A stretch of DNA of 64,000 nt. It comes from a phage. Below the pieces are notes generated by a model. The model did no database searches. It saw only the letters and a list, made by a program, of their open reading frames with translations, and was not told the DNA's origin. The translations under genes were made by a program, and so were the position numbers. Within the stretch, counting starts at the first letter, position 1; the number at the start of each line of letters is the position of its first letter. Of the stretch, positions 43,083 to 58,728 are shown piece by piece. Location of the stretch: assembly GCA_024682255.1 (NCBI GenBank), contig GCA_024682255.1_4716.1; one strand, written 5' to 3'.

Positions 43083-43093
43083 ATTAATTAAAA

Positions 43094-43993
43094 TTATACG
43101 GGAGCGTTAACGTTATAACCGAATACTGCTTTACCGTAGGTGTGAGTACCGTCAGCTAACGACAGCACCAGCACATTGCCGTACGTAGCGTTAACGCCCT
43201 TGTCGGTAGACTCGAGGGTATCACCGTTATAGACAAAGGTAGCTGTTTGCAGATTGGCTTTCAGTTCATTGATGATCTCATCACTTACACCGGTCTGCTC
43301 TTTGATCAGGGTGGTCAGGTTACCTGCCAGGCTTTCATCGATCTTGGTTTCGTTACTGGTAATCGCCTGTAAACCTACGCCGTAGATGCTGAAGTCTAAC
43401 GGATAGGTTAACAGACGCGCTGACGTTTTGGTACCATCGCCTTCATCAACGTAGGTTAAGTTACCCAGGTTGGTAACCTTGATGATGTTAGCCAGATCCA
43501 GCGTGGTGTTATAAACTTTAACTTGAACCGAGCCATACCACGCCAACGAATCTTCTTTGGCTTCCAGGGTGATCGTCTGGATACCATGCTGGTCGAAGGT
43601 AACCGGCGTAGCTAACGTTTCGGCTTTGATGTCTTTCGCTTTATCCAGGAACTTCTCACCGGAAGGCGTGATCATACCGTAGCGTTGAGCTACAAGGTCA
43701 ACCACGTCACCAATAGTGGTGTTCGCATTAACGTTAACACGTACAGCGATTTTCTGGAACCACTTAGCCAGATCCAGACGATGGTAGGTAACATCGCGTT
43801 CATTGAAGTAAGGGGTACCTTCACCTGGGCTAAGCGTTAAAGTTGCTTCTGGAGCAGAAGGATTCTTTTCTTTAAGAACGTATTTAAGGTCGGTGTATTT
43901 GAAGCTGGCACCAGTGTCGGCGTTGAGTTTGTTAATCTCATCAACGATAAGTTGCCAAGGTGTTTTTAAAGTAAGCGATACTTGAGCTGTCAT
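43094..43993 (-). CDS. paralog-family protein (YxRLDL ... LAWYGSV motif family), function unknown
   Basis: Track ORF, 299 aa; shares TYHRLDLAKWF and LAWYGSVQV motifs with 44135..44677, 55050..55955, 56872..57723 and 57734..58681. Confidence 0.6.
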   Translation of the reverse strand: MTAQVSLTLKTPWQLIVDEINKLNADTGASFKYTDLKYVLKEKNPSAPEATLTLSPGEGTPYFNERDVTYHRLDLAKWFQKIAVRVNVNANTTIGDVVDLVAQRYGMITPSGEKFLDKAKDIKAETLATPVTFDQHGIQTITLEAKEDSLAWYGSVQVKVYNTTLDLANIIKVTNLGNLTYVDEGDGTKTSARLLTYPLDFSIYGVGLQAITSNETKIDESLAGNLTTLIKEQTGVSDEIINELKANLQTATFVYNGDTLESTDKGVNATYGNVLVLSLADGTHTYGKAVFGYNVNAPV

Positions 43994-44134
43994 TTTCTAC
44001 CTCTATGGTTGTTACATCACTCTCAAAAGATGTAAGTGTTTACAGAAATTAATATATTTTATATTAGTGTGAATAGTATGGAGAACGACTCCGAATCTCC
44101 TTTTCGACCATCAAAAATCAGAGGACACATAATC

Positions 44135-44677
44135 ATGGACTTAAACTTTAACAAAGCAGCGAAATCCCTTCTGCTTGATCTTATCAACACCAAAGCAACC
44201 CGCACACTGTCTGAAGAAGAACTGCAGTTCGGTACTCCGGCGACATCTTCCGAACATGGAAAGAACACCGTTATTCAGCTGGACGCTGCGCCTGAAGCAG
44301 CTAACCTGCAGGGTAGTCAGCAGTTCTACTACGATCGTCTGGCTCTGTCCGAAGTTTTCGCTGAAGTAACCGGCGATGTTACTTTCGAACTGCCGCACGG
44401 CACTGACAGCATTAAGGCTTCTGAACTGGTAAGCAAGCTGGTCACCAAATTCGGCCTGGCTTCCCTGACCGGTGAAATCAAAGAAGAAACCTTCCAGCTG
44501 TCTGCAGGTACTGTTGGTCGGGTAACCCTGACTGCGATCGAGGGTGGCCTGGTATATACCGGCACTCTGCAGGTTGCACTGACCTACGCAGCTGCACCGA
44601 AAGACCAACTGGCAACCGTTCTGGCGAATAACGTAGCTGATGGCTTCGTGAAACCGACCGTTAGCGCTGTTGGCTAA
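44135..44677 (+). CDS. paralog-family protein, function unknown
   Basis: Track ORF 44036..44677 (GTG); ATG 44135 with GAGGA SD preferred; motifs FYYDRLALSEVF and LVYTGTLQV. Confidence 0.55.
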   Translation: MDLNFNKAAKSLLLDLINTKATRTLSEEELQFGTPATSSEHGKNTVIQLDAAPEAANLQGSQQFYYDRLALSEVFAEVTGDVTFELPHGTDSIKASELVSKLVTKFGLASLTGEIKEETFQLSAGTVGRVTLTAIEGGLVYTGTLQVALTYAAAPKDQLATVLANNVADGFVKPTVSAVG

Positions 44678-44682
44678 TAAGC

Positions 44683-44733
44683 GTGTAGAGCAATAGTATG
44701 GGTTTTGTACAGCTCGGCTATTGCTCTTCTACA
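44683..44733 (+). terminator. long hairpin GTGTAGAGCAATAG ... CTATTGCTCTTCTACA
   Basis: ~13-bp inverted repeat starting 6 nt after stop of 44135..44677. Confidence 0.5.
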
Positions 44734-44876
44734 ATTTGGTTGTAACAATCTGCGTGGTTGCACGCTTATCTTTCTCATTGAGCGCTTCGTATGAAGCGTG
44801 GTGTTGAAAGGGTTGTGGATCTCCTCAAGCGGCCAGGGACCCAGACCAACCCGAATAAACACGAACACCTGTTAAG

Positions 44877-44908
44877 CCCCTCCTCATCCGTTATTGGGTG
44901 GGGAGGGG
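44877..44908. terminator. degenerate GGAGG-family hairpin CCCCTCCTCATCCG-TTAT-TGGGTGGGGAGGGG
   Basis: Imperfect inverted repeat in the 44678-44971 intergenic region. Confidence 0.4.
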
Positions 44909-44971
44909 TCTTATACGTCTTTATACGTTCCGTTCGTTCTGGAGCGTTTTAGGACGGTTTACGGCGGGGTT

Positions 44972-45607
44972 TTACTCAACACTGAACCCGTTCAAACGAA
45001 TAGCTTCATAACGCTTACGTTCACGACGTTTACGTGCCTGCCAACCGTAAATGAACTTCTCGTCTTTCTCACGACGTTCAGCTAATTCGATGTAGTAAGT
45101 GCTCTGCATATCCAGCATCGCGTCGATGAGATAATCTTTACCGGTTTCTCCGCGTTTAGCGATGTAAGCATCAATAGCTGCCAGTGATTTGGGACCCATT
45201 GCACCATCAGCGTCAATATCTTTCCAGTAAGTTTGACGGTTGTTCATGACGTTGAGATAACGCTGGAGGTTCTTAACCGCAACGGTTTTGCCTGCGTTGA
45301 TACCCAGGTCAAAGAGACGGTCAGCTAAAAACACAGAACGTTTCATGACTTCGTCAAGCTTCATCTTATCCCAGAAGTGGGTCTTGTAAATAAAGAACGC
45401 CATGTCGTAAGTAAGGTCACGCATGTTACCGTTCCAGCCGAATTTCGTTTTCAGCGTGGTTTTGTACTGATCGGCGAGTGCTTTCGTGATCCCCATCATG
45501 GTTTCATTTCCACTATCGTCAGGATCGTTAACATATCCTGCTTCGATACTGGTTTTGTCACGAATGATGAATTCGCAGGTAAAATCTTTTTCAGTAATCT
45601 TAGCCAT
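44972..45607 (-). CDS. GH108-family muramidase-like protein (candidate endolysin or virion-associated lysin)
   Basis: Track ORF, 211 aa; N-terminal EAGYVNDPDDSGNETMMGIT matches the GH108 signature EGGYxxDPxDxGGxTxxGIT; ATG with GAGGAG SD. Confidence 0.65.
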   Translation of the reverse strand: MAKITEKDFTCEFIIRDKTSIEAGYVNDPDDSGNETMMGITKALADQYKTTLKTKFGWNGNMRDLTYDMAFFIYKTHFWDKMKLDEVMKRSVFLADRLFDLGINAGKTVAVKNLQRYLNVMNNRQTYWKDIDADGAMGPKSLAAIDAYIAKRGETGKDYLIDAMLDMQSTYYIELAERREKDEKFIYGWQARKRRERKRYEAIRLNGFSVE

Positions 45608-45649
45608 TAGAACTCCTCGTTGGAATAACGATTTAGAGGAACAGGAAGG

Positions 45650-45727
45650 GTCTAGAACGCGATAAACGATTTAAACCAGGTAAACCCCAGGTTAAACTTT
45701 TCGAAGCGTTACAACGCGTTCTAGAAC
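45650..45727. promoter_or_regulatory. 11-bp inverted repeat TCTAGAACGCG ... CGCGTTCTAGA (54-nt spacer), 3' arm within 12-bp palindrome CGTTCTAGAACG
   Basis: Read directly; between the tail-fibre stop (45734) and the GH108 gene start (45607). Confidence 0.35.
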
Positions 45728-45733
45728 GTTGAA

Positions 45734-47782
45734 TTACATACCCTTGGTTCCTTTCACGTGATGTGCAATTTCTTCAACCATTGCACGCAGAGCACGAAGC
45801 TGTTGATCATGTTCGTACCAACCGCCTAACAGAACCCCACTATACACCATGGTGTCAAGACTTAACAGCCCTTTATCTGATACGTTGATCATTTCAGGGA
45901 ACTGTTCTTGAACACGCTGTGCAATAACACCGATCTTCTCGACATCAGGATCGTAGTTGTGACGGAAACGGGCAAGCCCGCTGCGCGCCATTTCACGTAA
46001 ACGTTCACTGAGAGATTCCGGATGGTCTTTCAGATAACGGATGTCGTGTTTACTACGCTCATCTGAACGGATGTATGCGTTAGGAACATCGATGTTGCTG
46101 TTGAAGTACAGCGCACTACCACCACCTGCAGAGTTCCCCCAATAGAAGCGTGTGATCTCACCGCCACCATTTTCCGTGATGATAACATGTTTACCTAAAC
46201 GTGTACCACCATTACCATCAACGAAGACCAGTTTGTTTCCGCTGTAAGAACCCCAGAACAAACGCGTATCGATGATGTGCGTTGCGGCGAGGCGGGCGTT
46301 ACGTGGTGTAGAATACACGGTGTTAACATCTTGCTGCGCATGCGCATCGGAAGCGATACCATAGTTCTGTACGTTACCCAACCCAACCTGCGCTTTCGTA
46401 ACAGCGTGAGGGTTGTCTCGACGGTTAGCGTGAGCGTTAACCAGATCACCCGCTAATTTCTGAATTGCCCAGTTGGTAGACTGTGGCGTCATGTAACGGT
46501 TAGTTGCAGAACCACCTTGCGCTTCAGCTTGGTTAGCGGTTGGGTAGTTCTCAACACTTCCTAACCCTACTTGTGCTTTAGACACTTGGTGCGGGTTATT
46601 CTTGTCGGCTTTATGCGCATTAAGCGGAACTAACGCAAAGGTCTCAATGGACGCTTTGGTTGTGTTCGGTGCCATTAATCGGTTAGCTGCAACACCGGCA
46701 CGCGCTTCTTCTTCAGAAGCCATCGGATAGTCTTGCACATTACCTAATCCCACCTGCGCCTTGGTCACTCTGTGTGGGTTGTTATAATCGGCTTTGTGCG
46801 CATTAAGTGGAATCAATGCGAATTGTTCAATCGCGGCAACGGTACGTAGCGGTGTCATGAAACGGTTGTTCGCTGTTCCGGCTTTCGCCTCATCATCCGA
46901 AGCGGTCGGGAAGTTATCAACGTTCCCAAGGTTAACCTGTGCTTTGGTGACGCTGTGTGGGTTATCCCGGCGGTTAGCGTGAGCATCGACTAGATCGCCC
47001 GCCAGTTTAGCAATTGCCCATCCAACCGTTTGTGCGGTCATGTATCGGTCAGGTGCGGTACCGGCTTCTGCCTCCGCCTTGTTTGCAGTAGGATAGTTCT
47101 GTACGTTACCTAGTCCGACTTGGGCTTTTGTTACTTCGTGCGGGTTATCGGTACGGTTAGCGTGTGCGTAATGCAGATCGGTCAGATCTTTATCCGCTGC
47201 TTGCATGTCTTTGCGTAGCTGATCGATTGCCGCCCAGAGACGGTTATCGGATGCAGCATCACCGATAAGTATTGCGGCTTTCAGTGAATAGATCGCTAAG
47301 CAAAGATGTTCGGTACCGTAAATAGCACTAACGTGGTGGATGTGTGGTTCAGGCGGATAAAGTTCCGGTTTGTTCTTGATGTCGTCCCAGTTGATCGGAC
47401 GATCGTCAAGTTTGAGTTCTTCGATAGCCTGATACAACGCGTCAATAAGACTTACGTAAACACCACCGATGATACGATAGTCGTTAACTAATGTCCCCTC
47501 GATATCATCGTTGATGATGGCGATGGCTGCACAGATTTCTTTACCTGCGTAAAGCGTCGCATCCTGATACAAGAAAATGGGTTTATAATCCACGCCTCGT
47601 ACCAGTGTCTTACCGGTAAGCTTTTCAGTGATGACCAGACTTTCGGTGAAGAACGGTCCGCCATCAAGGGCGTAACATTTATTCTCGGTTCGTGGAACGG
47701 TATGCTCTTCACCAACGATGTGGTTGCTGGCGAGTGTACCGGTCCAGTCCTCGGGGTACTTCAGGGTAATTGGTGTCGACAT
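45734..47782 (-). CDS. tail fibre protein with five NPHxVTKAQVGLGNV repeats and a C-terminal S74-type intramolecular chaperone domain
   Basis: Track ORF, 682 aa; five ~45-aa repeats of the Phage_fiber_2 type; C-terminus RSDERSKHDIRYL ... IGVIAQRVQEQFPEMI matches the endosialidase-chaperone autocleavage region (SDxRLK ... GFIAQEVEEVLPE). Confidence 0.8.
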   Translation of the reverse strand: MSTPITLKYPEDWTGTLASNHIVGEEHTVPRTENKCYALDGGPFFTESLVITEKLTGKTLVRGVDYKPIFLYQDATLYAGKEICAAIAIINDDIEGTLVNDYRIIGGVYVSLIDALYQAIEELKLDDRPINWDDIKNKPELYPPEPHIHHVSAIYGTEHLCLAIYSLKAAILIGDAASDNRLWAAIDQLRKDMQAADKDLTDLHYAHANRTDNPHEVTKAQVGLGNVQNYPTANKAEAEAGTAPDRYMTAQTVGWAIAKLAGDLVDAHANRRDNPHSVTKAQVNLGNVDNFPTASDDEAKAGTANNRFMTPLRTVAAIEQFALIPLNAHKADYNNPHRVTKAQVGLGNVQDYPMASEEEARAGVAANRLMAPNTTKASIETFALVPLNAHKADKNNPHQVSKAQVGLGSVENYPTANQAEAQGGSATNRYMTPQSTNWAIQKLAGDLVNAHANRRDNPHAVTKAQVGLGNVQNYGIASDAHAQQDVNTVYSTPRNARLAATHIIDTRLFWGSYSGNKLVFVDGNGGTRLGKHVIITENGGGEITRFYWGNSAGGGSALYFNSNIDVPNAYIRSDERSKHDIRYLKDHPESLSERLREMARSGLARFRHNYDPDVEKIGVIAQRVQEQFPEMINVSDKGLLSLDTMVYSGVLLGGWYEHDQQLRALRAMVEEIAHHVKGTKGM
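45737..46115 (-). other. S74-like intramolecular chaperone (autoproteolytic) domain of tail fibre
   Basis: C-terminal ~125 aa beginning at the SDERSK motif. Confidence 0.6.
46330..47200 (-). repeat. in-frame tandem coding repeats (~135 nt unit) encoding NPHxVTKAQVGLGNV modules
   Basis: Recurring DNA segments (e.g. ..gttacccaacccaacctgcgcttt.. on the plus strand) and five protein repeats. Confidence 0.7.
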
Positions 47783-47795
47783 AACCTGGAGGTCC

Positions 47796-50390
47796 TTATA
47801 ACGTGACTGTACCTAATTTGGTTGTCTTATTGAGATTAATGACAGAGATCTGGGTATCGCTGGTCGTAATCGTTCCGATATTAACGCGCTGTCCTTTATC
47901 ATCTTCTTGCTTGTAGATGGTTAACTCCAGTTCTAACTGGTCGCCATTAGGAACAACGGAAACGTACCATGTTTTATTACCTGGTGAGCTATTATAGTCT
48001 TTTAGGTTATAATGGCCTTTAGGTAAGGTCATGACCTTACCGGCAAACAAGCAAGTGATGTCTTCGTTGATGTAGATATCGTAACCGGAAGCAGCAACGA
48101 CCGTAGAAACCATGTAGACATGTTTGACGGTACCTGCGAGGTATTCGGCTACGCTTGGCCCATATGCTCTGAATACCTGTCCGCCATTGGATAAACGGTA
48201 CGCTTCCCCAAGGTCAACGTACCCCAGACCCCATACCGGATGGACGTTGTAACGACGTCCGCTGCTGGCCAAATACTCATAAAGCTCATCTACCGATAAC
48301 CCAACCCACGCACCACTGGCGTTCTTAGCACCACGGAATTGAAAATCGTTTGCGTTTCCTGGAGTAGCAACGCGCACGGACATCGCCCCGGCGATTAACC
48401 AGCCATCAGCGCATTTACGATACCCTAATGGTCCCCACGCCCCCAGAGTGTTATCAATGTTATTGATTTGGTCCCGAGGCGTGTAAGTTACCGTTGTGAC
48501 GACCCCCGTTACGGTAATGTTCCCTTCCCGAGCGCTAGTCGTTACTTCAGACGTCATGATAGCCGCCTTCCTGGAGACAGGATCGTACACCGATATGAAC
48601 ATCAAGCAGGGGGCCCCTGTGGACGCTGGAGGAACCACGATAGAGCCGCGTATAACGGAGTATCTCTCAAGCTTCGGCGACGTGTAGGTATCCCAACAAA
48701 GTTTGGCCGCTCTGTCGAGTTCTGCCTGCGTGATGCTTATCGATGCCCCCTTTAAGGCTAACGTATCAGGGTCGACCTCAACCCTGCTGCTTAATCTCCC
48801 TTCCTGTAACCAGCTACCAGTCACTATCGTCTGGTCGTCGCTCATGTGAATTGTCGCGAAACGTTCGCTCACTGAACCGCCTACGTGGACGCGACTGGTT
48901 GGCGGGAATCCCGTCACATCGACCACGCTGTTCTTATAGCGATAACTCAAATCCCAATCAGTGGTTATTAACCGCTTTTCGAAATTGCTCTGACCCCCTG
49001 GGATGCGGGATAAGACATAGACCTTGTTCTTCGCCGTGAAGCCAACGAAGCCGTGTGGACCACAGGACCCAACAACGCGGTCCATGATGTTAATCCAGTT
49101 CCCCACCTCGTACGCGGATATTGGGGTGAGTTTCGCAAGTTCGTCGAAGACATTACCAGCGTAGTCACCAATGCGATACGATCGAACCATCGGCGAGGCC
49201 AGGTTATCATTCACACAGCTGGTAACCAGACCGTCCTCGCGAATGACCATGTTCCCGGTAAGGTTGCCCCCACCCCATGCCCAGAATCCGTCTTTATAAT
49301 CACGGTCACGAGTTGACATCGTACAAGGGCCACGAAAGGACACCGAACCATCGGAGTTCACTTGTAATGACGGCGTTCCAGCATTGGGACTTAATGTCCA
49401 TTGCTTCGTATCCAGGTTCAAATCGACGTACCAGATCGTTGTCCCCTGGTCGGCGATATTCACGGTACTGTTAGTGTACCATGCCGTCGTGCAGTAGATT
49501 CGCGCAATGTTACCTCTTACAACAGCGTAATTTCGAACACCCGCACGAATAGGGATAAACGTCGTTAATTGACTAGGGTACGCTGTATGGTTTAACACTT
49601 CCCAGAAAAGAATGTGGTCGAGGTTGGTTTTCGTCGTTCCCTCAAAAATCTTTCCACTAAACCCGGTTTCTTTGGTGAACTGTACAGCCGCACCATTTTT
49701 AATGTCCGATAACATACAGGTATGTACATCGAGCCCGTGTTTCCCTTCATATTCCCACCAGACTAACAGGTACACTTTGTTTTTGTAGACGAACGTACTA
49801 CAGCGCGCCATGCTGTTGGTAATACCCTCTACCGACCCGGTACACATAGCGGCGACATGCATCTCTACGTTGAATGTGCCGTTAGTCAGAACGATGTAGG
49901 GCTGTGTGTTCTCGTCGTTTGCGTCCATCGCGATACCCATCATCACGCCGTGGTTATGACACCAGACCGATTGTGGGATTTTAGGTAGTGCTGTAGGGTT
50001 GTACTGGCGACTGGTACCTATGGCGGTATCGAGCAACCCTTCACCATTGTTTTTACAGATAGCGTAATACACCCCGTTTTTCATGCTGTTGGATGCAGAG
50101 CGAAGGATGGAAACACTCCCGTCTGCTTCCTGACAGATTCCGTAGGTACGACGTTCGGTCATGGCTATCGCGCCATCAGCTGACCCTTCGATGGCGAGAG
50201 GGAAGTAACTTTGATCGCCAATTTGTTCGATATCGGTTACGTCAATATCAATGTACTTTTCCATCTCGGTGTTGAACTCTGCAGTGCTGTACGCGCCGAG
50301 ATCGCCAGCCTTTAACCCTGTTGGATTGCTTCTGCTAGCGATGCGCTCGGTAACACTGGTCACCAGTTCGCTAAATTTTTTCATTGCCAT
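47796..50390 (-). CDS. large tail-associated protein (putative tail fibre/tailspike), function unknown
   Basis: Track ORF, 864 aa, ATG start; embedded in fibre operon; no catalytic motif recognised. Confidence 0.45.
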   Translation of the reverse strand: MAMKKFSELVTSVTERIASRSNPTGLKAGDLGAYSTAEFNTEMEKYIDIDVTDIEQIGDQSYFPLAIEGSADGAIAMTERRTYGICQEADGSVSILRSASNSMKNGVYYAICKNNGEGLLDTAIGTSRQYNPTALPKIPQSVWCHNHGVMMGIAMDANDENTQPYIVLTNGTFNVEMHVAAMCTGSVEGITNSMARCSTFVYKNKVYLLVWWEYEGKHGLDVHTCMLSDIKNGAAVQFTKETGFSGKIFEGTTKTNLDHILFWEVLNHTAYPSQLTTFIPIRAGVRNYAVVRGNIARIYCTTAWYTNSTVNIADQGTTIWYVDLNLDTKQWTLSPNAGTPSLQVNSDGSVSFRGPCTMSTRDRDYKDGFWAWGGGNLTGNMVIREDGLVTSCVNDNLASPMVRSYRIGDYAGNVFDELAKLTPISAYEVGNWINIMDRVVGSCGPHGFVGFTAKNKVYVLSRIPGGQSNFEKRLITTDWDLSYRYKNSVVDVTGFPPTSRVHVGGSVSERFATIHMSDDQTIVTGSWLQEGRLSSRVEVDPDTLALKGASISITQAELDRAAKLCWDTYTSPKLERYSVIRGSIVVPPASTGAPCLMFISVYDPVSRKAAIMTSEVTTSAREGNITVTGVVTTVTYTPRDQINNIDNTLGAWGPLGYRKCADGWLIAGAMSVRVATPGNANDFQFRGAKNASGAWVGLSVDELYEYLASSGRRYNVHPVWGLGYVDLGEAYRLSNGGQVFRAYGPSVAEYLAGTVKHVYMVSTVVAASGYDIYINEDITCLFAGKVMTLPKGHYNLKDYNSSPGNKTWYVSVVPNGDQLELELTIYKQEDDKGQRVNIGTITTSDTQISVINLNKTTKLGTVTL

Positions 50391-50402
50391 TATTCACCTC
50401 AG

Positions 50403-50888: not shown

Positions 50889-50892
50889 ACGG

Positions 50893-51408
50893 CTACCCCA
50901 TGTAACGTTTTTGGCCGAGGATGAAGACCTTGTTAAGGACCACCGAGGTAATGCCTGACGCGTTGCAACTCACCTGCCCAACACGAATCGCTGTTGATGA
51001 ATCAGCCCCAGCACTACTGTTCCAACTCCAGCCGACCGACCCACCTTTCTGATGAATGAAAAGATAACCGGTTCTGTTCGCCCAGTCGGAAGTAAGATTT
51101 TTGATGTCTAGCGTTCCTTTCGCCAGAATATAGTCGGTACCGGAGATCATGACGGGGATTTCAGGATACGAGATTACCGTACCGCTAGCGGTAACGTTGC
51201 TGATGCGATCACTACGGATATCAGTGCAATCACCGAAATACGCTACAGGGAGTATCCCCTTAGGTAGCTTTTTGTCGATTTTTGTATCGACCGTGCTTTT
51301 ATCGGGTGCGTCGATTTGCGCTGCAGTGACTTGGTTAGGGTTATCCTTCCTTGTGTACCATGTCGTCATGCGAGCACCCAATTCACTCATTTTTGTGCCC
51401 ATTTTCAC
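50893..51408 (-). CDS. short fibre-associated protein with single NPxxVT motif
   Basis: Track ORF, 171 aa; N-terminus WYTRKDNPNQVTAAQI. Confidence 0.5.
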   Translation of the reverse strand: MKMGTKMSELGARMTTWYTRKDNPNQVTAAQIDAPDKSTVDTKIDKKLPKGILPVAYFGDCTDIRSDRISNVTASGTVISYPEIPVMISGTDYILAKGTLDIKNLTSDWANRTGYLFIHQKGGSVGWSWNSSAGADSSTAIRVGQVSCNASGITSVVLNKVFILGQKRYMG

Positions 51409-51417
51409 ATCCTATCG

Positions 51418-51453
51418 AAAAATAAAAAGAAGGAAAGGTGGGTAGAACCCACC
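51418..51453 (-). terminator. rho-independent-type terminator (GGTGGGT-aga-ACCCACC + U-rich tract on minus strand)
   Basis: 7-bp stem; followed on the minus strand by TTTCCTTCTTTTTATTTTT; directly after stop of 51460..53613. Confidence 0.65.
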
Positions 51454-51459
51454 CATCCG

Positions 51460-53613
51460 TTATAACGTTTCGAAGTCGGTTGCTTTGATAACCGCGTTGA
51501 AGTTAGCAAGGAATTCCTTAAGCAGTGCTTGGAAGACATCACGAAACGCTGTGTTCGTCTGCAAGCTGGTTAAATAATCGTTCTTAAGGTAATCGCTCAG
51601 CTTACCGATCTTCTGCATCTTCTCGCCGTCTTGGTTCTCTCCAGGTTCTTGGCTGTTGATGTTAACCCATTTGATCCCTTCGAGATCGCCATCGGCAAGG
51701 AAGTTAGCAGGTGTCTCATCGTCGTTCAGGATTTTAATTGTGTCGCTGGATTCAATGCCACCGTAAGCTTCCAGAAGCTGGTTGATGGTCAACTTATTGA
51801 CGTTGATTGAACCATTGACACCATCAATACCGATGCCTGCACCTGTGATGGATGTCGCCGAAAGATCGATCGGTCCGGTTAACTTACCACCGTTGATCGG
51901 TAACGCACCAACTTGCTCAGCGGTGTGTGTATGGTCGGCTAACGCCGCAAACGCCACGATAGACTTATACGTCGAATACGGCGTCATATACGCTGAATGG
52001 TTGGTGTTGTCAACCGCTTCGGTATCGGTAGCGACATTAAAGTTCTGCACGTTGCTGAGACCGACCTGCACCTTCGTTACTTCATGCGGGTTGCTCTTAT
52101 TGACAACGTGTGCTGCAAAACCGTCACCAGCTAAAGCAGTGATTGCCGCTTTTGTCGCAGCCGGTGTCATATAGCGGTTGGTTGCTTCACCCGTTTGCGC
52201 CTCTTCGTCGGAAGCAACAGGATAGTTCTCAACGCTCCCCAAACCGACCTGAGATTTTGTTACTTGGTGTGGGTTTTCGGTATTCGCGATGTGACTACTG
52301 AACCCTTGACCAGCCAGTTGCTCGATTGCGTAACGAACAAGTATTGGTGTCATGTACTTGTTGTTAACTTGACCATCGATAGCTTCTTGGGTGGTAGCAA
52401 CCCCGAAGTTTTGCACGCTCCCCAACCCAACCTGCGCTTTCGTAACGGCGTGAGGGTTATTGGTGTTACCGATGTGATCGGTAACCGTTGGCGTGATTAA
52501 TGCTGCGATAGCGGCTGCCGTGGTCGCAGGGGTCATGTATTTATCGTTAGCAACACCCGCACCAGCTTCTACGTTAGATGCTACACTGTAGTTCGATACA
52601 TTTCCCAACCCAACTTGAGCTTTGGTTACCCCATGAGGGTTATTGGTGTTACCGGTATGGGTTGTCAACGTAGCGTCGACATGATCGATACGCGTGCTTA
52701 AGCCATCGGTGATCGCTCTGATTGCGGCTCGTACACCCGCTGGAGTCGTGTACAGATTTGTGGCCGTACCGGTAATGGTTGCATTACTATCGGCTGTACC
52801 GTAGTTCTCAACGTTTCCGAGTCCCACCTGGGCTTTAGTTACCTTGTGTGGGTTGTTGCGGTTACTGATGTGTGCAGCGGCACTATCACCACTAAGGTTA
52901 GCGATCATCTTACGTGTCATCGCCAACGTCATGTACAGATTTTCACCGACAGTTTCCAGATCGCTCTCGGTCGCTGTTGTGAAGTTCTGCACATTCCCCA
53001 ACCCAACCTGCGCTTTCGTAACGCCATGGGGATTATCGCGACGATTCTCGTGCTGCAGCAATGCGGTCATTGCTTTATTGAACCCTTCTTCAAGCGGTTC
53101 TTTCAATGATTCGATTGCCGCCACCACATCGTCCCACGTCATTGTGTCGGTTTCGACATTATGTTGGTGGTTGATTGGCGGGAATACGGAAGGAACGTCG
53201 GCAACCTTTTCCCAGAACGTAACGCGAGGATCGTAAAGGTTGTTGGCTAAAACGTTAAGAATTTGTTGTTGATCAAGTGTAAACTCACCCCCCAGTGAAT
53301 AGTAGTTCAGTTGCAACTGTCCACTGAATGCGGTGTCCAACAGCATGATGGAACCGTATAATTCCAGGCCGGTCAGCGCAGCCATGGCACGGAAGGGGTG
53401 AGTGCATAAAAAGTCAACGCCTTCTTCCAGATACGCGTTTGTTTCAGGGTTGTAGATCTTTAACCCATTACGAAAATATGGCGCGTATTTAGGAACGAGA
53501 AAGTTAAATCCGGTCCCCGTGGAAGGACGGACAGTGACGAGTTCTTCTGGAACCCATGCGCCATCCAAATTCCCCTGCGGGTTATACGGAAGGCGTTTAA
53601 TTTCATCTGTCAT
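51460..53613 (-). CDS. tail fibre protein with six NPHxVTKAQVGLGNV repeats
   Basis: Track ORF, 717 aa; six ~46-aa repeats; N-terminal domain related to that of 45734..47782. Confidence 0.8.
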   Translation of the reverse strand: MTDEIKRLPYNPQGNLDGAWVPEELVTVRPSTGTGFNFLVPKYAPYFRNGLKIYNPETNAYLEEGVDFLCTHPFRAMAALTGLELYGSIMLLDTAFSGQLQLNYYSLGGEFTLDQQQILNVLANNLYDPRVTFWEKVADVPSVFPPINHQHNVETDTMTWDDVVAAIESLKEPLEEGFNKAMTALLQHENRRDNPHGVTKAQVGLGNVQNFTTATESDLETVGENLYMTLAMTRKMIANLSGDSAAAHISNRNNPHKVTKAQVGLGNVENYGTADSNATITGTATNLYTTPAGVRAAIRAITDGLSTRIDHVDATLTTHTGNTNNPHGVTKAQVGLGNVSNYSVASNVEAGAGVANDKYMTPATTAAAIAALITPTVTDHIGNTNNPHAVTKAQVGLGSVQNFGVATTQEAIDGQVNNKYMTPILVRYAIEQLAGQGFSSHIANTENPHQVTKSQVGLGSVENYPVASDEEAQTGEATNRYMTPAATKAAITALAGDGFAAHVVNKSNPHEVTKVQVGLSNVQNFNVATDTEAVDNTNHSAYMTPYSTYKSIVAFAALADHTHTAEQVGALPINGGKLTGPIDLSATSITGAGIGIDGVNGSINVNKLTINQLLEAYGGIESSDTIKILNDDETPANFLADGDLEGIKWVNINSQEPGENQDGEKMQKIGKLSDYLKNDYLTSLQTNTAFRDVFQALLKEFLANFNAVIKATDFETL
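52050..53040 (-). repeat. in-frame tandem coding repeats encoding NPHxVTKAQVGLGNV modules
   Basis: Six protein repeats; recurring DNA segments. Confidence 0.7.
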
Positions 53614-53645
53614 GATGCGCCCTTTACAAGTTGTTAGTAAGTATG

Positions 53646-53663
53646 GGATACCCTGGGGTATCC
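53646..53663. promoter_or_regulatory. 18-bp palindrome GGATACCC-TG-GGGTATCC in divergent promoter region
   Basis: Perfect 8-bp inverted arms with 2-nt spacer, between 51460..53613 (-) start and 53718 (+) start; followed by AAATATTACTG resembling the TATATTAC core. Confidence 0.4.
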
Positions 53664-53717
53664 TGTGTTAACAGCGGTAAAATATTACTGTAACTATAAA
53701 ATAAGGGGGCCTCTCCC

Positions 53718-54998
53718 ATGTATACATTGGTAAAAACTTACGGGTTACCCGTAGGTTCTGGCACGGCCTGGACAGCGCTTGAGGCGGGTGAAAGTGTCCT
53801 GAGTACGTTGTTCTCAACGTATCAAAAACTCAAGATCCAGGTCCATGAAAGCTACGCTGACCAGCAACAAGTTATTGATCTGTACACATTTCAATCCGAG
53901 CTTCAAAACAGCAGTGATACGCTCAATGCGTGGTTGAAAGCGAAATCGGATGCACATACCAACCTTCGAGGACAGCCTGGTGAGCTGTCGATTAAAACCC
54001 ACAAGCTTTATTGTCATGACGCTATTACGGTAGGCTTTCTCCCTAAAGTCGGTAATAGCGGTTATCATCCGAGCAATGCGATCCCTGAGTCGGAACGCAC
54101 TGATATCCTGTTGACGAAAGCGAATACGAATTACGAAAATATCGGCAAACACTGCTTGTTCACCGTAGGCGGTTATGTTCATCCTCACGTCTACGGTAAA
54201 GACGTTGGTGTCTATATCCTGGGTGGGTTCGAGACAGCACAGCGTAGCCAAGAAAACGATATCGGCATGATTGATTTTAGCCGTATCGGGAGTTTGGAAA
54301 TTCATGCTATCACAGAAGAGATGATTGCTGATTCCACGAAGCTCTTGCCGTATAAGGACGAGATGTACTTGCGGTTACCGCGCAAGGTCGCCGAAGATGA
54401 AACCGTTGCGCTGGTGTTCGGGGGATATTTACATCTTCTTGACGATTGTTACACGATCGTTAGCGACACGACAGCAAAAATAAACTGCATTAACATGTTT
54501 CTCTATGAAAGATACTTCCGTTCCCGCAAATACCTTGATCTAACATCTCTTGGTATTCTGTTGAACGAAGAAGACCCACAGTCCGACATTGTTGCCAATC
54601 GTTTATTGTCGGATAAAGCATTAAAAGCGTGGGTGACGCATCCTTGCAGTTTCTGGGTGTATATCAAAGCAACATCGATTCGGGTTACGCAAGAACCTTT
54701 ACCACGAAGTGGTGTACCAGGACAGTATTTCTTAGGTAAGAAACCGGAAGGATTGATTCGGGCCGATCTTGGTGAGTTACCGGCTTACGTGCAGACCTAT
54801 GAAAAACCGTTATGGGTACTTCACTCGCGCTGGGGACTTCGTAAGAACATGTTGTTTGAAAATACGTTGTACAAACATACCCGCGTTAAGCGGCTTAACG
54901 ATACGCCTTATCTTCACCAGGTCTGGTTGGAAACGCATGCGACGTTGCAGACAGTACACAAGCTCGAATTGATCGATTCCAGTCAGAAAAACAAATAA
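53718..54998 (+). CDS. hypothetical protein
   Basis: Track ORF, 426 aa, ATG start. Confidence 0.6.
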   Translation: MYTLVKTYGLPVGSGTAWTALEAGESVLSTLFSTYQKLKIQVHESYADQQQVIDLYTFQSELQNSSDTLNAWLKAKSDAHTNLRGQPGELSIKTHKLYCHDAITVGFLPKVGNSGYHPSNAIPESERTDILLTKANTNYENIGKHCLFTVGGYVHPHVYGKDVGVYILGGFETAQRSQENDIGMIDFSRIGSLEIHAITEEMIADSTKLLPYKDEMYLRLPRKVAEDETVALVFGGYLHLLDDCYTIVSDTTAKINCINMFLYERYFRSRKYLDLTSLGILLNEEDPQSDIVANRLLSDKALKAWVTHPCSFWVYIKATSIRVTQEPLPRSGVPGQYFLGKKPEGLIRADLGELPAYVQTYEKPLWVLHSRWGLRKNMLFENTLYKHTRVKRLNDTPYLHQVWLETHATLQTVHKLELIDSSQKNK

Positions 54999-55008
54999 CC
55001 AAACATAA

Positions 55009-55040
55009 CCCTCCTCCAACCCAACAGGGAAGGAGGAGGG
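55009..55040. terminator. GGAGG-family hairpin CCCTCCTCC-AA-CCC-AACA-GGG-AA-GGAGGAGGG between convergent genes
   Basis: Perfect 9-bp outer and 3-bp inner stems; near-identical to the copies at ~43048 and ~27180 (reverse complement). Confidence 0.6.
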
Positions 55041-55049
55041 AATATGCTG

Positions 55050-55955
55050 TTATGCTACATATAGCGTTAGATAACCATCGATGAGCGTATTCATCACACT
55101 GAGTTGGAGTACGACAGCTTTACTAACATCTGTGCGTACACCGAACGGTAGTGTTTTGAATTGCTCTGGATCGGCTATTACTCTCGCATTCTGCAAGTTG
55201 AGTGGTCCAGGCATTGCTGACAGTACCCAGCGATCGTTGACCGTAAGACCGTCGATCTCTTCAGAGAGACCCAATTGCAGCATGTTCATTTCTGCAATTA
55301 GTGCCTCCGATTGCGTATCACCTGAGGTTAACGTATACCCATCGGTAAGTGATGCCAGAACACCAGCAGATACGAACCAGTTGTACGAAACAATAGCGCC
55401 AGGGAGTTTATCACTATCTCGATCGATGAGATAATTCAACCCAGCCAACATATTGTTGCGAATGAGGTTGTTGAGGTCATTATGTCCTGAGGTTAACTCA
55501 ATGAGTAATTGACCAACCCATACTTGGTTACCGGGTTTAGGTGTTATCACAACCTGTATCGGTGACTTGGACTTATCCAGATCCGCGTCGACAATCTCGG
55601 TTTTGTTGAGAAGGATACCGTACGTCGATGCTAAGACAGGTAGGATCTCAGAGACCTTGGTTAGCGCATCTAAGGTTTCGATCTCGATGGGCCAGTGGTG
55701 CTGTCCGCCAGACCAAGTACCTAGTTTACCAAGATCGATACGGTTATAATAGATGTCGACAGAGTTCACCAGCCCTGAACCCGGTTGGGGATGCACGGTT
55801 AACTTGCTGTTACGCTTGTACCCGGTGCTTTCAGAAGCCTCACCGATAACCAGTTTATCCAGCGTTACGCCTCGAGCATCGAAATCGCTATGCTTTCGAA
55901 TCAGCCGAAAGAGGATTTCTTTCGATTCTAACCCCAGGATTTCACTGTACTCCAT
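55050..55955 (-). CDS. paralog-family protein, function unknown
   Basis: Track ORF, 301 aa; motifs YKRNSK, IYYNRIDLGKL, STYGIL. Confidence 0.6.
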   Translation of the reverse strand: MEYSEILGLESKEILFRLIRKHSDFDARGVTLDKLVIGEASESTGYKRNSKLTVHPQPGSGLVNSVDIYYNRIDLGKLGTWSGGQHHWPIEIETLDALTKVSEILPVLASTYGILLNKTEIVDADLDKSKSPIQVVITPKPGNQVWVGQLLIELTSGHNDLNNLIRNNMLAGLNYLIDRDSDKLPGAIVSYNWFVSAGVLASLTDGYTLTSGDTQSEALIAEMNMLQLGLSEEIDGLTVNDRWVLSAMPGPLNLQNARVIADPEQFKTLPFGVRTDVSKAVVLQLSVMNTLIDGYLTLYVA

Positions 55956-55970
55956 TTAACACCCCTTAGG

Positions 55971-56855
55971 TTACGGTAGGATTTCTGCGCCCGTCGGGCC
56001 TGCCTTACGAGCTTCCAACGCACCAAGGTCGTATTTCAGTGTCAGCGTATCGTTGGTAGTATAAAGGTTGTGGTAAGTCGAAATCAGATCGGTAACCTGC
56101 GCGCCGACGATTTCGTTCATGTCGAAGGTAGAACCTTGACCATCATCAGCACGAACGATTTTGTCACCAGCAGAGACCATCCCAATTTCAGAAATAACCG
56201 CGTACTCTTCACCACCTTCGGTGAGTTTAGCCACATTGAGATATTCGTTAATATCCCACGGCGTCCAAACCAAAGAGACTTTACAGCTATAGTCGTAGTA
56301 CTCCCCGGTCGCTACCAGAATTCCGGTTGTTGGAATATCTGGTCGGGTGGGGTTGAGGTTCGCGTCGGTTGGATGCCATTCGATGGTCTGAGCGACGCCG
56401 TCGACGTATTTGGTATAACGCATGGAGCGGACAACGTTATCGAAATCGATGCGACGACCGTAATAACAGATATACTTTTTACCGCTTTCCAGTGTCTCAA
56501 TACGACGTAACCCAAATCTAGCGCGTTCGTCCGTGGTCAAATCGTTACCAACTTCACGCATCACGAAAGGCTTGATTTTCCACGGTGATAGATCGCTTGC
56601 TTCGTGAGCGATCGGCATCGAGGAAGGGATACCGTTAGCGTTGCGGATGAATTCATGACCTTGGTTGCCGATACAGAAGTAACGTACAGCAGGATTACCC
56701 TCGGGGTAAACCTTTGATTGAATCTGAAGCTTTTCATTCAAGGTGCTGTGTTCTTCCCACGCATGAGGAAGACCGAGCGTAAGATTAGTTTGTACTTGAC
56801 CGCCGATAATCGTACGGACGATACGATCGGTAGCACGGATTTGTGTAGAAGCCAT
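55971..56855 (-). CDS. hypothetical protein (not of the paralog family)
   Basis: Track ORF, 294 aa, ATG start. Confidence 0.6.
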   Translation of the reverse strand: MASTQIRATDRIVRTIIGGQVQTNLTLGLPHAWEEHSTLNEKLQIQSKVYPEGNPAVRYFCIGNQGHEFIRNANGIPSSMPIAHEASDLSPWKIKPFVMREVGNDLTTDERARFGLRRIETLESGKKYICYYGRRIDFDNVVRSMRYTKYVDGVAQTIEWHPTDANLNPTRPDIPTTGILVATGEYYDYSCKVSLVWTPWDINEYLNVAKLTEGGEEYAVISEIGMVSAGDKIVRADDGQGSTFDMNEIVGAQVTDLISTYHNLYTTNDTLTLKYDLGALEARKAGPTGAEILP

Positions 56856-56871
56856 GTCTTTTCCTATTTAA

Positions 56872-57723
56872 TCAGTTATATTGCATCAACAGGATACCGC
56901 CGTAGTTCGTGCAGTAATCTTGGCTAAGCGTAACGATAACAGCGTTAGCGAACGCTGGGTTAACAGGATAACCCTGTGCGATAAGTTCTGTTGTTTTACC
57001 GGTCGCGAGCACGGTGGCTCCGTAAAGGTTGTTTTCATCTTCACGGCCGTTATACACCCACGGGGTTGGCGCAACGTTGTTGAATAAGCTAACCAATGCG
57101 CTTAAGTTACCACCAACTTTTAACCCAGCAAGATCGGAACGGATCGCTGTACAGTCTATAGCGTAACTGTAGACCAGTGCTTGGATACGATTTGCGGTGT
57201 AGTACGGGAAATTGAGACCGGTCATCACCGTGGTCTTCATCATCCCCGCAATATCGTGGGCGCTATCGAGGAGATAGAACGTAACACTTCCTGTCCAAGC
57301 CAATCCGGTTGTTTTCAATTCTACGGTGTGAGGGAACGGATATTCATCACCTCGTACAATCGGAGAATCGACGCAGCTATCCTGATCGATAACGATACCG
57401 TACGTTGATTGGATCAGAGGGATAAGATCGTGCGTCGTTTTAACCCCGGCATCGATAGCAAGCTTCGGTTCCATTCCCAAGAAGAAGTCTTGAATAGGGA
57501 TACGATCGTACCACACGTAGCTGCTTTCACGGTATTGTGCTGGTGTTACTGTTGCCGAAGGCGATACTTTCGCGCGCGTGTTCCGTTTATACGCGTGGTT
57601 TCCGTTTTCAGCAACATCCGTGATATCAATTGCATCGAAGTTAAAGTCGAAGTCAGGATTGGCTGCCTGAATAAGTTCAGCGACCAGTACTTTAGGACTT
57701 TTGTTTAACAATTTCTGACTCAT
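56872..57723 (-). CDS. paralog-family protein, function unknown
   Basis: Track ORF, 283 aa; motifs YKRNTR, VWYDRIPI, STYGIV, LAWTGSV, DYCTNYGG. Confidence 0.6.
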   Translation of the reverse strand: MSQKLLNKSPKVLVAELIQAANPDFDFNFDAIDITDVAENGNHAYKRNTRAKVSPSATVTPAQYRESSYVWYDRIPIQDFFLGMEPKLAIDAGVKTTHDLIPLIQSTYGIVIDQDSCVDSPIVRGDEYPFPHTVELKTTGLAWTGSVTFYLLDSAHDIAGMMKTTVMTGLNFPYYTANRIQALVYSYAIDCTAIRSDLAGLKVGGNLSALVSLFNNVAPTPWVYNGREDENNLYGATVLATGKTTELIAQGYPVNPAFANAVIVTLSQDYCTNYGGILLMQYN

Positions 57724-57733
57724 TGTTTATTCC

Positions 57734-58681
57734 TTAGCCTTGTTCTTCTGGAGAACGACCCTGGAGGCTTGCGGTATGTCCGTCGACATTGTAATAGAAA
57801 ATCAATGGACCGCCAACGGCAGTACAGTAGTTTTCATCCAGACTGATCTCGATACCGTATTGGTAACCTGCTCTTGCTGGAATACGTCCGCCTAACTCAC
57901 CGTTGAAAGCCACTTTAGCATTATACAGGTTATACGGTGCGGCGTTGTCGTCTAATACCCAACGATCGGTAGTCATTTCAGCCAGAAGATCGGCGACCAC
58001 CACATCGCTAATAACGGTACCTGTTACCAGCGAAGCCAGCAGTTCACCGTAATCAGAAGTATCACGACTGTAACTGTAGATCTCGCCGCTAGCGCGTACG
58101 CCTTGACCGAAGAACTTAAGACCATCCAGCTCTTTGATCGCGATAATATCATCAAGATTCGGTACACGCGACTTCATCAAGATACGAACGCTCCCCGTCC
58201 AAGCCAGGCAGCTAGATGAAACACGAAGCAATTGTCCGTTAACGGTATCCCAGCTAAGTTCGTCGTTGACGATTTCTTCCGCGGTAAGGCCAAGACCGAA
58301 ACGTTCTTTGATGATAGGCCAGATATCACGCATCTTGGTAGCGTCTGGCGCATCGATAAGAATAGGCGCTACGTTACGCAGATACGCACCGATGTTAATA
58401 CGATCGTAATACAGCGTCGTCGAACCTTCATAATCGTCTAACTCGGTAAGCTTAGCGGTTGCCGTTGCCGTAATCTGGGTGTCGCGCTCATAGGCGCTTT
58501 GGTTGGTGGTTGGTGTTCCTAAAACCAATAATTCAGGGGTTAGAACATGCTCTCCGTTCTGAGGTGGGTTATCGTGGTTGATAAGACCATACACGAGATC
58601 GGATGAGGGTAAAGAGACGTCGACCGGGTAAAGTTCGGTGTCGTCAATAATTGTTACCGTATCACTCACGGTGACCTCCAC
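57734..58681 (-). CDS. paralog-family protein, function unknown
   Basis: Track ORF, 315 aa; motifs YERDTQ, LYYDRINI, LAWTGSV, ENYCTAVGG. Confidence 0.6.
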   Translation of the reverse strand: MEVTVSDTVTIIDDTELYPVDVSLPSSDLVYGLINHDNPPQNGEHVLTPELLVLGTPTTNQSAYERDTQITATATAKLTELDDYEGSTTLYYDRINIGAYLRNVAPILIDAPDATKMRDIWPIIKERFGLGLTAEEIVNDELSWDTVNGQLLRVSSSCLAWTGSVRILMKSRVPNLDDIIAIKELDGLKFFGQGVRASGEIYSYSRDTSDYGELLASLVTGTVISDVVVADLLAEMTTDRWVLDDNAAPYNLYNAKVAFNGELGGRIPARAGYQYGIEISLDENYCTAVGGPLIFYYNVDGHTASLQGRSPEEQG

Positions 58682-58728
58682 GCCAGGAATTAATTAAAAA
58701 AGACTTTACGATTTGCTGCACTATCACG

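What the first reader, a model, noticed from the sequence alone, without database searches (positions are those of the whole stretch)
43094..58681. Five-member paralogous protein family, three in tandem, flanking the tail-fibre module
Proteins from 43094..43993, 44135..44677, 55050..55955, 56872..57723 and 57734..58681 share ordered motifs (YKRN/YERD ... YYDRI(D/N)(L/I) ... STYGI ... LAWTGSV ... (D)ENYCTxxGG) but are otherwise diverged. Their position next to the fibre genes and the shared GGAGG hairpins suggest structural or host-range roles diversified by duplication. Function is unknown.
Basis: seen in the sequence. Interest (0 to 1): 0.55.

Follow-up and report, generated by a model that had tools for sequence, protein, structure and literature searches.

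The report
Known jumbo-phage virion filament protein family
The five genes are real, ancient paralogues of DUF7941, a virion-protein family already described in nucleus-forming jumbo phages and thought to build chains at the tail baseplate; the finding is correct but not new.

Summary
The window is a close relative of E. coli jumbo phage Goslar. The five ORFs correspond to Goslar gp22, gp23, gp31, gp33 and gp34.

Corrections:
- The "three in tandem" are interrupted by the unrelated baseplate spoke gene (DUF7208).
- The gp34 homologue probably starts at 58669.
- The GGAGG hairpins are generic terminators.

Findings here that I did not see in those papers:
- gp31/33/34 evolve slowly (dN/dS 0.04-0.16) and sit in an ancient wedge-DUF7941-DUF7941-spoke-DUF7941 cassette.
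- The high-copy gp22/gp23 evolve fast (dN/dS 0.4-0.7), and gp23 has two allele classes.
- The inter-domain linker is conserved, which fits head-to-tail polymerisation.

Where the bulk copies sit is unresolved: baseplate "fibre cloud", or head as in SPN3US tailless particles.

The parts
43094..43993 (-). Full-length DUF7941 paralogue (299 aa). It is the orthologue of Goslar gp22, the high-copy, filament-forming member.
   Evidence: Pfam PF25613 at E 8e-51. 88% aa identity to Goslar gp22. dN/dS 0.43-0.54 against close relatives. Linker residues 161-200 are the most conserved segment among 57 orthologue clusters.
44135..44677 (+). Short DUF7941 paralogue (180 aa) with the N-terminal domain plus linker tail only. 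It is the orthologue of Goslar gp23, the most abundant member, and is convergent with the endolysin gene.
   Evidence: Pfam PF25613 at E 7e-22, covering profile positions 4-174 of 276. AF2 mean pLDDT 89.7. dN/dS 0.51-0.71. Two allele classes at about 49% identity, with a conserved N-terminal helix and tail.
55050..55955 (-). Full-length DUF7941 paralogue (301 aa). It is the orthologue of Goslar gp31 and the last gene of the baseplate operon.
   Evidence: Pfam at E 2e-55. 92-97% identity across Goslar-like phages. dN/dS 0.11-0.16.
55971..56855 (-). Not a family member. This is the DUF7208 baseplate spoke protein (Goslar gp32, phiKZ gp139). It interrupts the 'tandem' trio and is the likely docking partner.
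   Evidence: Pfam PF23838 at E 8e-97. 35% identity to phiKZ gp139. In phiKZ the gp139 band ends at the DUF7941 protein gp127 (PMC13250141).
56872..57723 (-). Full-length DUF7941 paralogue (283 aa). It is the orthologue of Goslar gp33.
   Evidence: Pfam at E 5.5e-48. 96-99% identity among relatives. dN/dS 0.04-0.07. A positional orthologue exists in the distant contig L014.
57734..58669 (-). Full-length DUF7941 paralogue. It is the orthologue of Goslar gp34 and lies next to the wedge gene, the same position as phiKZ gp127. The start is most likely the GTG at 58669 (311 aa); the ORF runs on to 58681.
58729..61137 (-). Context: the baseplate upper-wedge protein (Goslar gp35, phiKZ gp128) at the head of the wedge-DUF7941-DUF7941-spoke-DUF7941 cassette.
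   Evidence: 35% identity over 619 aa to phiKZ gp128. 99% identity to Goslar gp35. The same gene order is found in L014.
43048..43079 (.). Terminator-type hairpin CCTTCCTCC-AA-CCC-AACA-GGG-AA-GGAGGAAGG, 3' of the gp22 homologue.
44876..44910 (.). Bidirectional terminator hairpin between the convergent gp23 homologue and the endolysin gene.
   Evidence: A terminator is annotated at the same place in Goslar.
55009..55040 (.). Terminator hairpin between the convergent gp30 and gp31 homologues. It is nearly identical to the copies at 43048 and 27180.
   Evidence: A terminator is annotated here in Goslar.

Best explanation
The five ORFs are paralogous members of the chimallivirus-specific DUF7941 virion-protein family, also known as SPN3US 'paralog family B'.

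Each protein has an N-terminal globular domain of about 150 aa and a conserved linker of about 30 aa that does not fold with confidence on its own in the full-length gp34 model. Four of the five also have a C-terminal globular domain. [quoted passage not shown]

The family divides into two groups:
- The gp31, gp33 and gp34 homologues are encoded around the spoke gene, directly after the wedge gene. They are low-copy, slowly evolving components or adaptors of the peripheral baseplate, like phiKZ gp127 at the end of the spoke band.
- The gp22 and gp23 homologues form a divergent gene pair at the other end of the fibre module. They are the high-copy, fast-evolving chain-building subunits that make flexible filaments associated with the virion.

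Status of each step:
- Shown here: homology, domain architecture, fold match to phiKZ gp127, conserved synteny, linker conservation, and the contrast in evolutionary rate.
- Taken from papers on orthologues: virion copy numbers, gp22 filaments by EM, and gp127 in the baseplate.
- Inferred: that these particular proteins polymerise through the linker, that the trio anchors the chains, and that the filaments help find the host.
For: Family membership:
- Pfam E 7e-22 to 6e-64.
- An exhaustive profile search finds 2381 cluster representatives, mostly 265-310 aa.

Architecture and fold:
- AF2 model of the gp34 homologue: two confident domains joined by a low-pLDDT linker.

Linker conservation:
- Across 114 diverse members the linker carries 1.3-1.7 bits per column, the same as the domain cores.
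- Among 57 gp22 orthologue clusters the linker is the least variable segment.
- Between the two gp23 allele classes (~49% identity), only the N-terminal helix and the linker tail stay conserved.

Synteny:
- wedge-DUF7941-DUF7941-DUF7208-DUF7941 recurs in a phage with 31-38% identical proteins.
- The order parallels phiKZ portal-gp128-gp127-gp126.

Evolutionary rate:
- At equal dS (~0.1-0.16), dN/dS is 0.43-0.71 for gp22/gp23. It is 0.04-0.16 for gp31/33/34 and 0.03-0.08 for the spoke and wedge proteins.

Literature:
- Goslar virion copy numbers, gp22 filaments in negative stain, and AF3 head-to-tail dimers (10.64898/2026.04.21.720040).
- phiKZ gp127 caps the gp139 band (PMC13250141).
Against:
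- No density for DUF7941 proteins was seen in the Goslar baseplate map (preprint).
- In SPN3US the homologous family, including high-copy gp141 and gp160 at more than 300 copies each, was recovered with purified tailless heads and assigned to the head (PMC5105663, PMC5694885). This conflicts with an exclusively baseplate-anchored location.
- Because gp22 self-assembles in vitro, free filaments might simply co-purify with particles.
- None of the five carries a receptor-binding or carbohydrate-binding domain.
- High dN/dS could reflect relaxed constraint rather than diversifying selection.
Confidence: 0.6

Rival explanations
1. The high-copy members (the gp22 and gp23 homologues) are head-associated proteins, either inside the capsid or on the capsid or neck surface, rather than baseplate filaments. 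Only a few low-copy members sit in the baseplate.
For: - SPN3US paralog family B is the same family: my HMM and Pfam hit SPN3US gp138-145, 148, 151, 154, 155 and 160.
- That family was detected in tailless particles, with more than 300 copies each of gp141 and gp160 per capsid (PMC5694885; PMC5105663).
- About 2700 copies per Goslar virion have no assigned density.
- PHROG files the family under 'head and packaging'.
Against: - The only member located by cryo-EM, phiKZ gp127, is in the outer baseplate.
- In PMC10052503 family B proteins are marked separately from the protease-cleaved head proteins.
- The genes lie in the baseplate and fibre module, not the inner-body region.
- gp22 forms filaments hundreds of nm long on its own, which is hard to fit inside a DNA-filled head.
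- Self-assembled filaments could co-purify with tailless heads.
Confidence: 0.2
2. The short paralogue (44135..44677, the gp23 homologue) is primarily a cytoplasmic regulator of lysis timing that binds the holin, as reported for phiKZ gp143. On this reading it is not a structural protein.
For: - phiKZ gp143 is 177 aa, lies next to endolysin gp144, and is listed as DUF7941 in the Goslar preprint. It accelerates or blocks holin gp142 triggering (PMC12894885).
- The window's short paralogue is 180 aa and lies next to the GH108 endolysin at 44972-45607.
- SPN3US has a short member, gp160, four genes from its endolysin homologue gp156.
Against: - Sequence similarity to gp143 is marginal: hhalign probability 4% at E 0.01, BLASTP not significant, and Pfam 18 bits against a 27-bit cut-off.
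- No homologue of the phiKZ holin or spanins is found in the window.
- The gene is convergent with the endolysin, not co-transcribed with it.
- The Goslar orthologue is the most abundant DUF7941 protein in virions, at about 2140 copies.
- phiKZ gp143 is itself annotated as a virion protein.
Confidence: 0.07
3. The family is a recently duplicated set of receptor-binding or host-range proteins.
For: - The genes are positioned on both sides of the fibre genes.
- gp22/gp23 evolve fast and gp23 has two allele classes.
- Other Goslar members, outside this window, fuse DUF7941 to carbohydrate-binding or LRR domains (preprint).
Against: - The paralogues share only 22-27% identity.
- The gp34 and gp33 types have separate orthologues in a distant phage, so the duplications are old.
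- gp31/33/34 are among the most conserved proteins of the module, while the real hypervariable gene is gp26 at 52% identity.
- No binding domain is detected in any of the five.
Confidence: 0.1

Closest known systems
Goslar gp22, gp23, gp31, gp33 and gp34 (DUF7941 proteins; Basu et al., bioRxiv 10.64898/2026.04.21.720040, April 2026)
   Same: - These are direct orthologues at 88, 88, 97, 98 and 98% aa identity, in the same order and orientation.
- They share the NTD-linker-CTD architecture, with gp23 lacking the CTD.
   Different: - The window comes from a different Goslar-like phage. Its gp26 is only 52% identical and its gp21 63%.
- The gp22/gp23 alleles differ at about 12% of residues.
- The preprint lists ten members in the whole genome; only five fall in this window.
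phiKZ gp127 (with gp126); PDB 9xqd, outer peripheral baseplate (PMC13250141)
   Same: - Same Pfam family.
- Same gene position, directly after the wedge gene (gp128 in phiKZ, gp35 in Goslar) and near the spoke gene.
   Different: - Only 14-22% sequence identity.
- phiKZ has two genes there (gp127 full-length, gp126 NTD-only), whereas this phage has three full-length genes interleaved with the spoke gene.
- One-to-one orthology to gp127 cannot be resolved by sequence: the best BLAST hit is the gp22 homologue.
SPN3US 'Paralog family B' (gp83, gp138-154, gp161, gp237; PMC5105663, PMC5694885)
   Same: - Homologous family: Pfam E as low as 1e-84 for gp141, and HMM hits to many members.
- Virion-associated, with one full-length and one short member at high copy.
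   Different: - 17-20 copies, mostly in one long tandem array, against 10 dispersed copies in Goslar.
- Assigned to the head on the basis of tailless mutants.
- No clear one-to-one orthology with the five proteins here.
phiKZ gp143, holin-specific lysis regulator (PMC12894885)
   Same: A short protein of about 177-180 aa encoded next to the endolysin. The Goslar preprint counts it as DUF7941 on structural grounds.
   Different: - Sequence relation to the window proteins is not significant.
- It is embedded in a co-directional spanin-holin-endolysin cassette that is absent here.

Membership tests
Pfam DUF7941 (PF25613) | Match to the family HMM above the 27-bit gathering score | tested here: met
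   173.5, 78.6, 188.6, 164.3 and 216.5 bits for the five ORFs.
Pfam DUF7941 (PF25613) | N-terminal globular domain, flexible linker and C-terminal globular domain; short members keep the NTD plus linker | tested here: met
   AF2 of the gp34 homologue: confident 20-170 and 195-300, linker 172-193 at pLDDT below 50. AF2 of the gp23 homologue: a single domain plus tail. The alignment shows the short member ending in the linker.
Pfam DUF7941 (PF25613) | Same fold as the only solved member, phiKZ gp127 (PDB 9xqd) | tested here: met
Pfam DUF7941 (PF25613) | Encoded by a chimallivirus (nucleus-forming jumbo phage), in several copies per genome | tested here: met
   The window is 94.5% identical in DNA to Goslar over 87% of the region. 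There are five copies in the window. tblastn finds 1-6 places per genome in 117 jumbo-phage records.
Pfam DUF7941 (PF25613) | Present in purified virions | not testable with these tools
   Shown by mass spectrometry only for the Goslar orthologues (Table S4 of the preprint) and for SPN3US homologues.
Pfam DUF7941 (PF25613) | Head-to-tail self-association through the linker, forming filaments | not testable with these tools
   No multimer prediction was available. Indirect support comes from the linker being as conserved as the domain cores family-wide and being the least variable part of gp22 and gp23 orthologues. Filaments were seen for Goslar gp22.
SPN3US Paralog family B | Detectable homology to SPN3US gp138-gp154 | tested here: met
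   The five-protein HMM hits SPN3US gp138-145, 148, 151, 154, 155 and 160 at E 1e-8 to 6e-48. Pfam DUF7941 matches gp141, gp145 and gp148.
phiKZ gp143-type lysis regulator (considered for 44135..44677 only) | Significant sequence similarity to phiKZ gp143 | tested here: inconclusive
   hhalign E 0.01 with probability 4%, although the alignment is collinear. BLASTP is not significant. gp143 itself falls below the Pfam threshold at 18.3 bits.
phiKZ gp143-type lysis regulator (considered for 44135..44677 only) | Lies inside a spanin-holin-regulator-endolysin cassette | tested here: not met
   An endolysin (GH108 plus PG_binding_3) is adjacent but convergent. No homologue of phiKZ gp141, gp141.1 or gp142 is found in the window.
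Tail fibre / receptor-binding proteins | Fibre repeats, an intramolecular chaperone, or carbohydrate-binding or beta-helix domains | tested here: not met
   No such Pfam domain occurs in any of the five. In contrast the neighbouring fibre gene 45734-47782 has Peptidase_S74. No fibre-like fold match was found.

The most novel reading that the evidence does not exclude
Within one structural family, the two high-copy polymerising subunits (the gp22 and gp23 homologues) may form an exposed, diversifying coat. On otherwise ~98% identical phage backbones they evolve at dN/dS 0.4-0.7, and gp23 occurs as two ~49% identical allele classes. Only the polymerisation interfaces (the N-terminal helix and the linker) stay fixed. 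This would mean the filaments are under host-driven selection, through receptor or surface-glycan contact or through recognition by a defence system. It would make them a serotype-like, swappable determinant, distinct from the classical fibres.
Probability: 0.2. Interest if true: 0.6.

Novelty: already known. Interest (0 to 1): 0.25.

Why it matters
As stated, the finding re-discovers a documented family, so it adds little by itself.

What is still open is the biology. Thousands of copies per virion have no assigned density. Published locations conflict: baseplate in phiKZ and Goslar, head in SPN3US, and a cytoplasmic lysis regulator in the case of phiKZ gp143. The host-recognition role remains a proposal.

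Two results here give concrete handles for experiments:
- The family splits into a slow-evolving baseplate trio and a fast-evolving high-copy pair.
- The linker is conserved.

Both point to linker mutants and gp23 allele swaps as direct tests.

Tried and rejected
- I looked for further family members in the window with an HMM of the five against all six-frame ORFs. There were none.
- I tried to assign one-to-one orthology. phiKZ gp127 best matches the gp22 homologue and SPN3US gp141 best matches the gp33 homologue, so it is not resolvable by BLAST. Only the gp34 and gp33 types could be matched, and only to a distant metagenomic phage.
- I tested the link between the short paralogue and the phiKZ gp143 lysis regulator. 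The similarity is not significant and there is no holin or spanin homologue nearby.
- I tested the idea that the GGAGG hairpins tie the family together. It is rejected: the same hairpin occurs at unrelated operon ends.
- I first read some ~150-205 aa hits as 'C-terminal-domain-only' members. They are 89-92% identical fragments of gp22 orthologues, probably truncated calls.
- I checked the ORF-free 0.9 kb next to the gp22 homologue for tRNA and Rfam families. None were found.
Full report
**What the window is**

Region 43000-59000 is 94.5% identical in DNA to Escherichia phage vB_EcoM_Goslar over 87% of its length. Goslar is a nucleus-forming jumbo phage (Chimalliviridae). Its annotation lets each ORF be matched to a Goslar gene:

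| Window ORF | Goslar gene | aa identity |
|---|---|---|
| 43094-43993 (-) | gp22 | 88% |
| 44135-44677 (+) | gp23 | 88% |
| 55050-55955 (-) | gp31 | 97% |
| 56872-57723 (-) | gp33 | 98% |
| 57734-58681 (-) | gp34 | 98% |

Between the two groups lie the endolysin (GH108 plus PG_binding_3), fibre genes gp25-gp29 and gp30. The short protein is 100% identical to one encoded on a 240,846-bp contig deposited under E. coli. The window is therefore a Goslar-like phage, not Goslar itself.

**Checking the observation**

- The five proteins align collinearly at 22-27% identity and 35-77 bits.
- Each matches Pfam DUF7941 (PF25613) at 78.6-216.5 bits against a 27-bit cut-off, and PHROG 1037 'virion structural protein'.
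- No sixth member is present in the window.

Four details need correcting:

1. The 'three in tandem' are interrupted by 55971-56855, an unrelated DUF7208 protein (E 8e-97).
2. The 44135 gene is on the other strand and contains only the N-terminal domain and linker.
3. The 57734 gene most likely starts at the GTG at 58669. A GGAGG Shine-Dalgarno precedes it, giving 311 aa as in Goslar.
4. The GGAGG hairpins are a recurrent terminator-type hairpin at operon ends throughout the window (27184, 31285, 38380, 43052, 44876, 55013). They correspond to terminators annotated in Goslar and say nothing about the family.

**Anatomy**

- An AlphaFold2 model of the gp34 homologue has mean pLDDT 79. It shows a confident N-terminal domain (about 20-170), a low-confidence linker (172-193) and a confident C-terminal domain (195-300).
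- The gp23 homologue models as one domain plus a tail, with mean pLDDT 89.7.
- An exhaustive profile search finds 2381 cluster representatives at E ≤ 1e-3. Most are 265-310 aa. Others are short NTD-only forms, proteins with two or three tandem N-terminal domains, and long fusions of up to 1970 aa.

**What is already published**

- The family was first noticed in Salmonella phage SPN3US as a '17-member paralog family' and later as 'Paralog family B' with 20 members (PMC5105663, PMC5694885). I confirmed it is the same family.
- The phiKZ structural atlas places gp127 at the end of the band of five gp139 dimers in each baseplate star lobe (PMC13250141). phiKZ gp139 is the homologue of the DUF7208 protein encoded at 55971-56855 (35% identity).
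- The April 2026 Goslar preprint (10.64898/2026.04.21.720040) names gp22, gp23, gp31, gp33 and gp34, plus five members elsewhere in the genome, as DUF7941 proteins.
- That preprint estimates about 2140, 580, 110, 27 and 8 copies per virion for gp23, gp22, gp33, gp34 and gp31. It also shows gp22 filaments by negative stain, predicts head-to-tail dimers through the linker, and proposes a baseplate-anchored 'fibre cloud' for host recognition.
- A further paper reports that phiKZ gp143, a short protein next to the endolysin which the preprint counts as DUF7941, modulates holin triggering (PMC12894885).

The finding is therefore already known.

**What I can add**

1. The family splits into two evolutionary regimes.
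   - Across eight Goslar-like loci the gp31/33/34 homologues are 92-99% identical to the window. The gp22 homologue is 85-97% identical and the gp23 homologue 50-89%.
   - Against Goslar and a second close relative, synonymous divergence is the same for all genes (dS about 0.1-0.16). However, dN/dS is 0.43-0.71 for gp22/gp23, 0.04-0.16 for gp31/33/34 and 0.03-0.08 for the spoke and wedge proteins.
   - gp23 exists as two allele classes that are about 49% identical.
2. The linker is conserved.
   - It carries 1.3-1.7 bits per column across 114 diverse members, like the domain cores, even though its pLDDT is 44-65 in the gp34 monomer model. In the model of the short gp23 homologue the tail has pLDDT 80-86.
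   - It is the least variable part of 57 gp22 orthologue clusters.
   - With the N-terminal helix, it is the only conserved part between the gp23 allele classes.
   - This is the pattern expected if the linker is a binding interface and the rest of the surface is free to vary. It supports the head-to-tail model indirectly.
3. The cassette wedge-DUF7941-DUF7941-DUF7208-DUF7941 is ancient.
   - It recurs in the same order on a 190-kb metagenomic contig whose proteins are only 31-38% identical. The first two DUF7941 genes there match the gp34 and gp33 types specifically.
   - The order parallels phiKZ portal-gp128-gp127-gp126.
   - The duplications are therefore old. The trio behaves like core baseplate components, not like host-range cassettes.

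**Most likely mechanism**

The five are subunits of a linker-mediated, head-to-tail assembling system.

- The conserved low-copy trio probably belongs to or caps the spoke and peripheral baseplate, as gp127 does in phiKZ.
- The divergent pair gp22/gp23 supplies the bulk chain-forming subunits.

I rate this at about 0.6. The steps involving polymerisation of these particular proteins, anchoring by the trio and host finding are inferred.

**Conflicts and rivals**

- The main conflict is the SPN3US result. Family members, including more than 300 copies each of gp141 and of the short gp160, stay with purified tailless heads. Either the bulk copies are head- or neck-associated, or self-assembled filaments co-purify with particles. 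I give head association about 0.2.
- The lysis-regulator reading for the short paralogue is weak here. Similarity to phiKZ gp143 is not significant, no holin or spanin homologue is nearby, and the orthologue is the most abundant DUF7941 protein in virions. I give it about 0.07.
- A literal 'recent duplication for host range' reading is contradicted by the age and conservation of the trio. The really hypervariable gene of the module is gp26, at 52% identity to Goslar and 98% to one metagenomic relative.

**Verdict**

Interest is low to moderate. What remains of value is the unresolved location and function of the high-copy members, and the fast, allele-structured evolution of gp22/gp23 reported here.

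Noticed in passing
window 1718-2180 (-) and ORF 2162-3646 (-): A group I intron (Rfam RF00028, 57.9 bits, E 4e-12) abuts a 494-aa ORF that carries an HNH_3 endonuclease domain. This probably marks an intron-interrupted phage gene with a homing endonuclease. The host gene was not identified.
   Followed up: partly
window 42167-43093: A stretch of about 0.9 kb between the gp21 and gp22 homologues is AT-rich (GC ~0.41) and has no ORF above 60 aa. No tRNA or Rfam family was found there. It is conserved at 85-99% nt identity in other Goslar-like phages and includes a GC-rich hairpin near 42913-42935. It could hold promoters or an undescribed RNA.
   Followed up: partly
window 47796-50390 (-), gp26 homologue: This is the most divergent protein of the fibre module: 52% aa identity to Goslar and most relatives, but 98% to one metagenomic phage (L011). 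The flanking gp27 and gp28 co-vary with it. This looks like a swapped receptor-binding cassette, and it has no Pfam domain.
   Followed up: partly
window 50403-50888 and 50893-51408 (-), gp27 and gp28 homologues: Two small adjacent proteins (161 and 171 aa) begin with the same 'NPH/NPN.VT..Q' motif that repeats in the large fibre proteins gp25 and gp29. They look like a further small paralogue pair related to the fibre N-termini.
   Followed up: no
L006 15842-16951 (a Goslar-like IMG/VR contig): One relative carries an extra 369-aa cysteine-rich ORF with an HNH-like motif, inserted between the fibre gene gp25 and the endolysin. It is absent from the window and from Goslar, and is probably a free-standing homing endonuclease.
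   Followed up: partly
protein hits P0023, P0024, P0030, P0036, P0057 and P0231: Many gp22 and gp23 orthologues sit on ~236-249-kb contigs deposited as E. coli, Salmonella or Shigella isolate assemblies. Goslar-like jumbo phages therefore seem to be carried along in bacterial isolate sequencing, which may reflect a carrier state or contamination.
   Followed up: no
representatives P0092, P0101, P0209, P0227 and P0130: Some family members of 341-556 aa contain two or three tandem copies of the DUF7941 N-terminal domain in one polypeptide. These are covalent versions of the proposed chain. They were not examined further.
   Followed up: no
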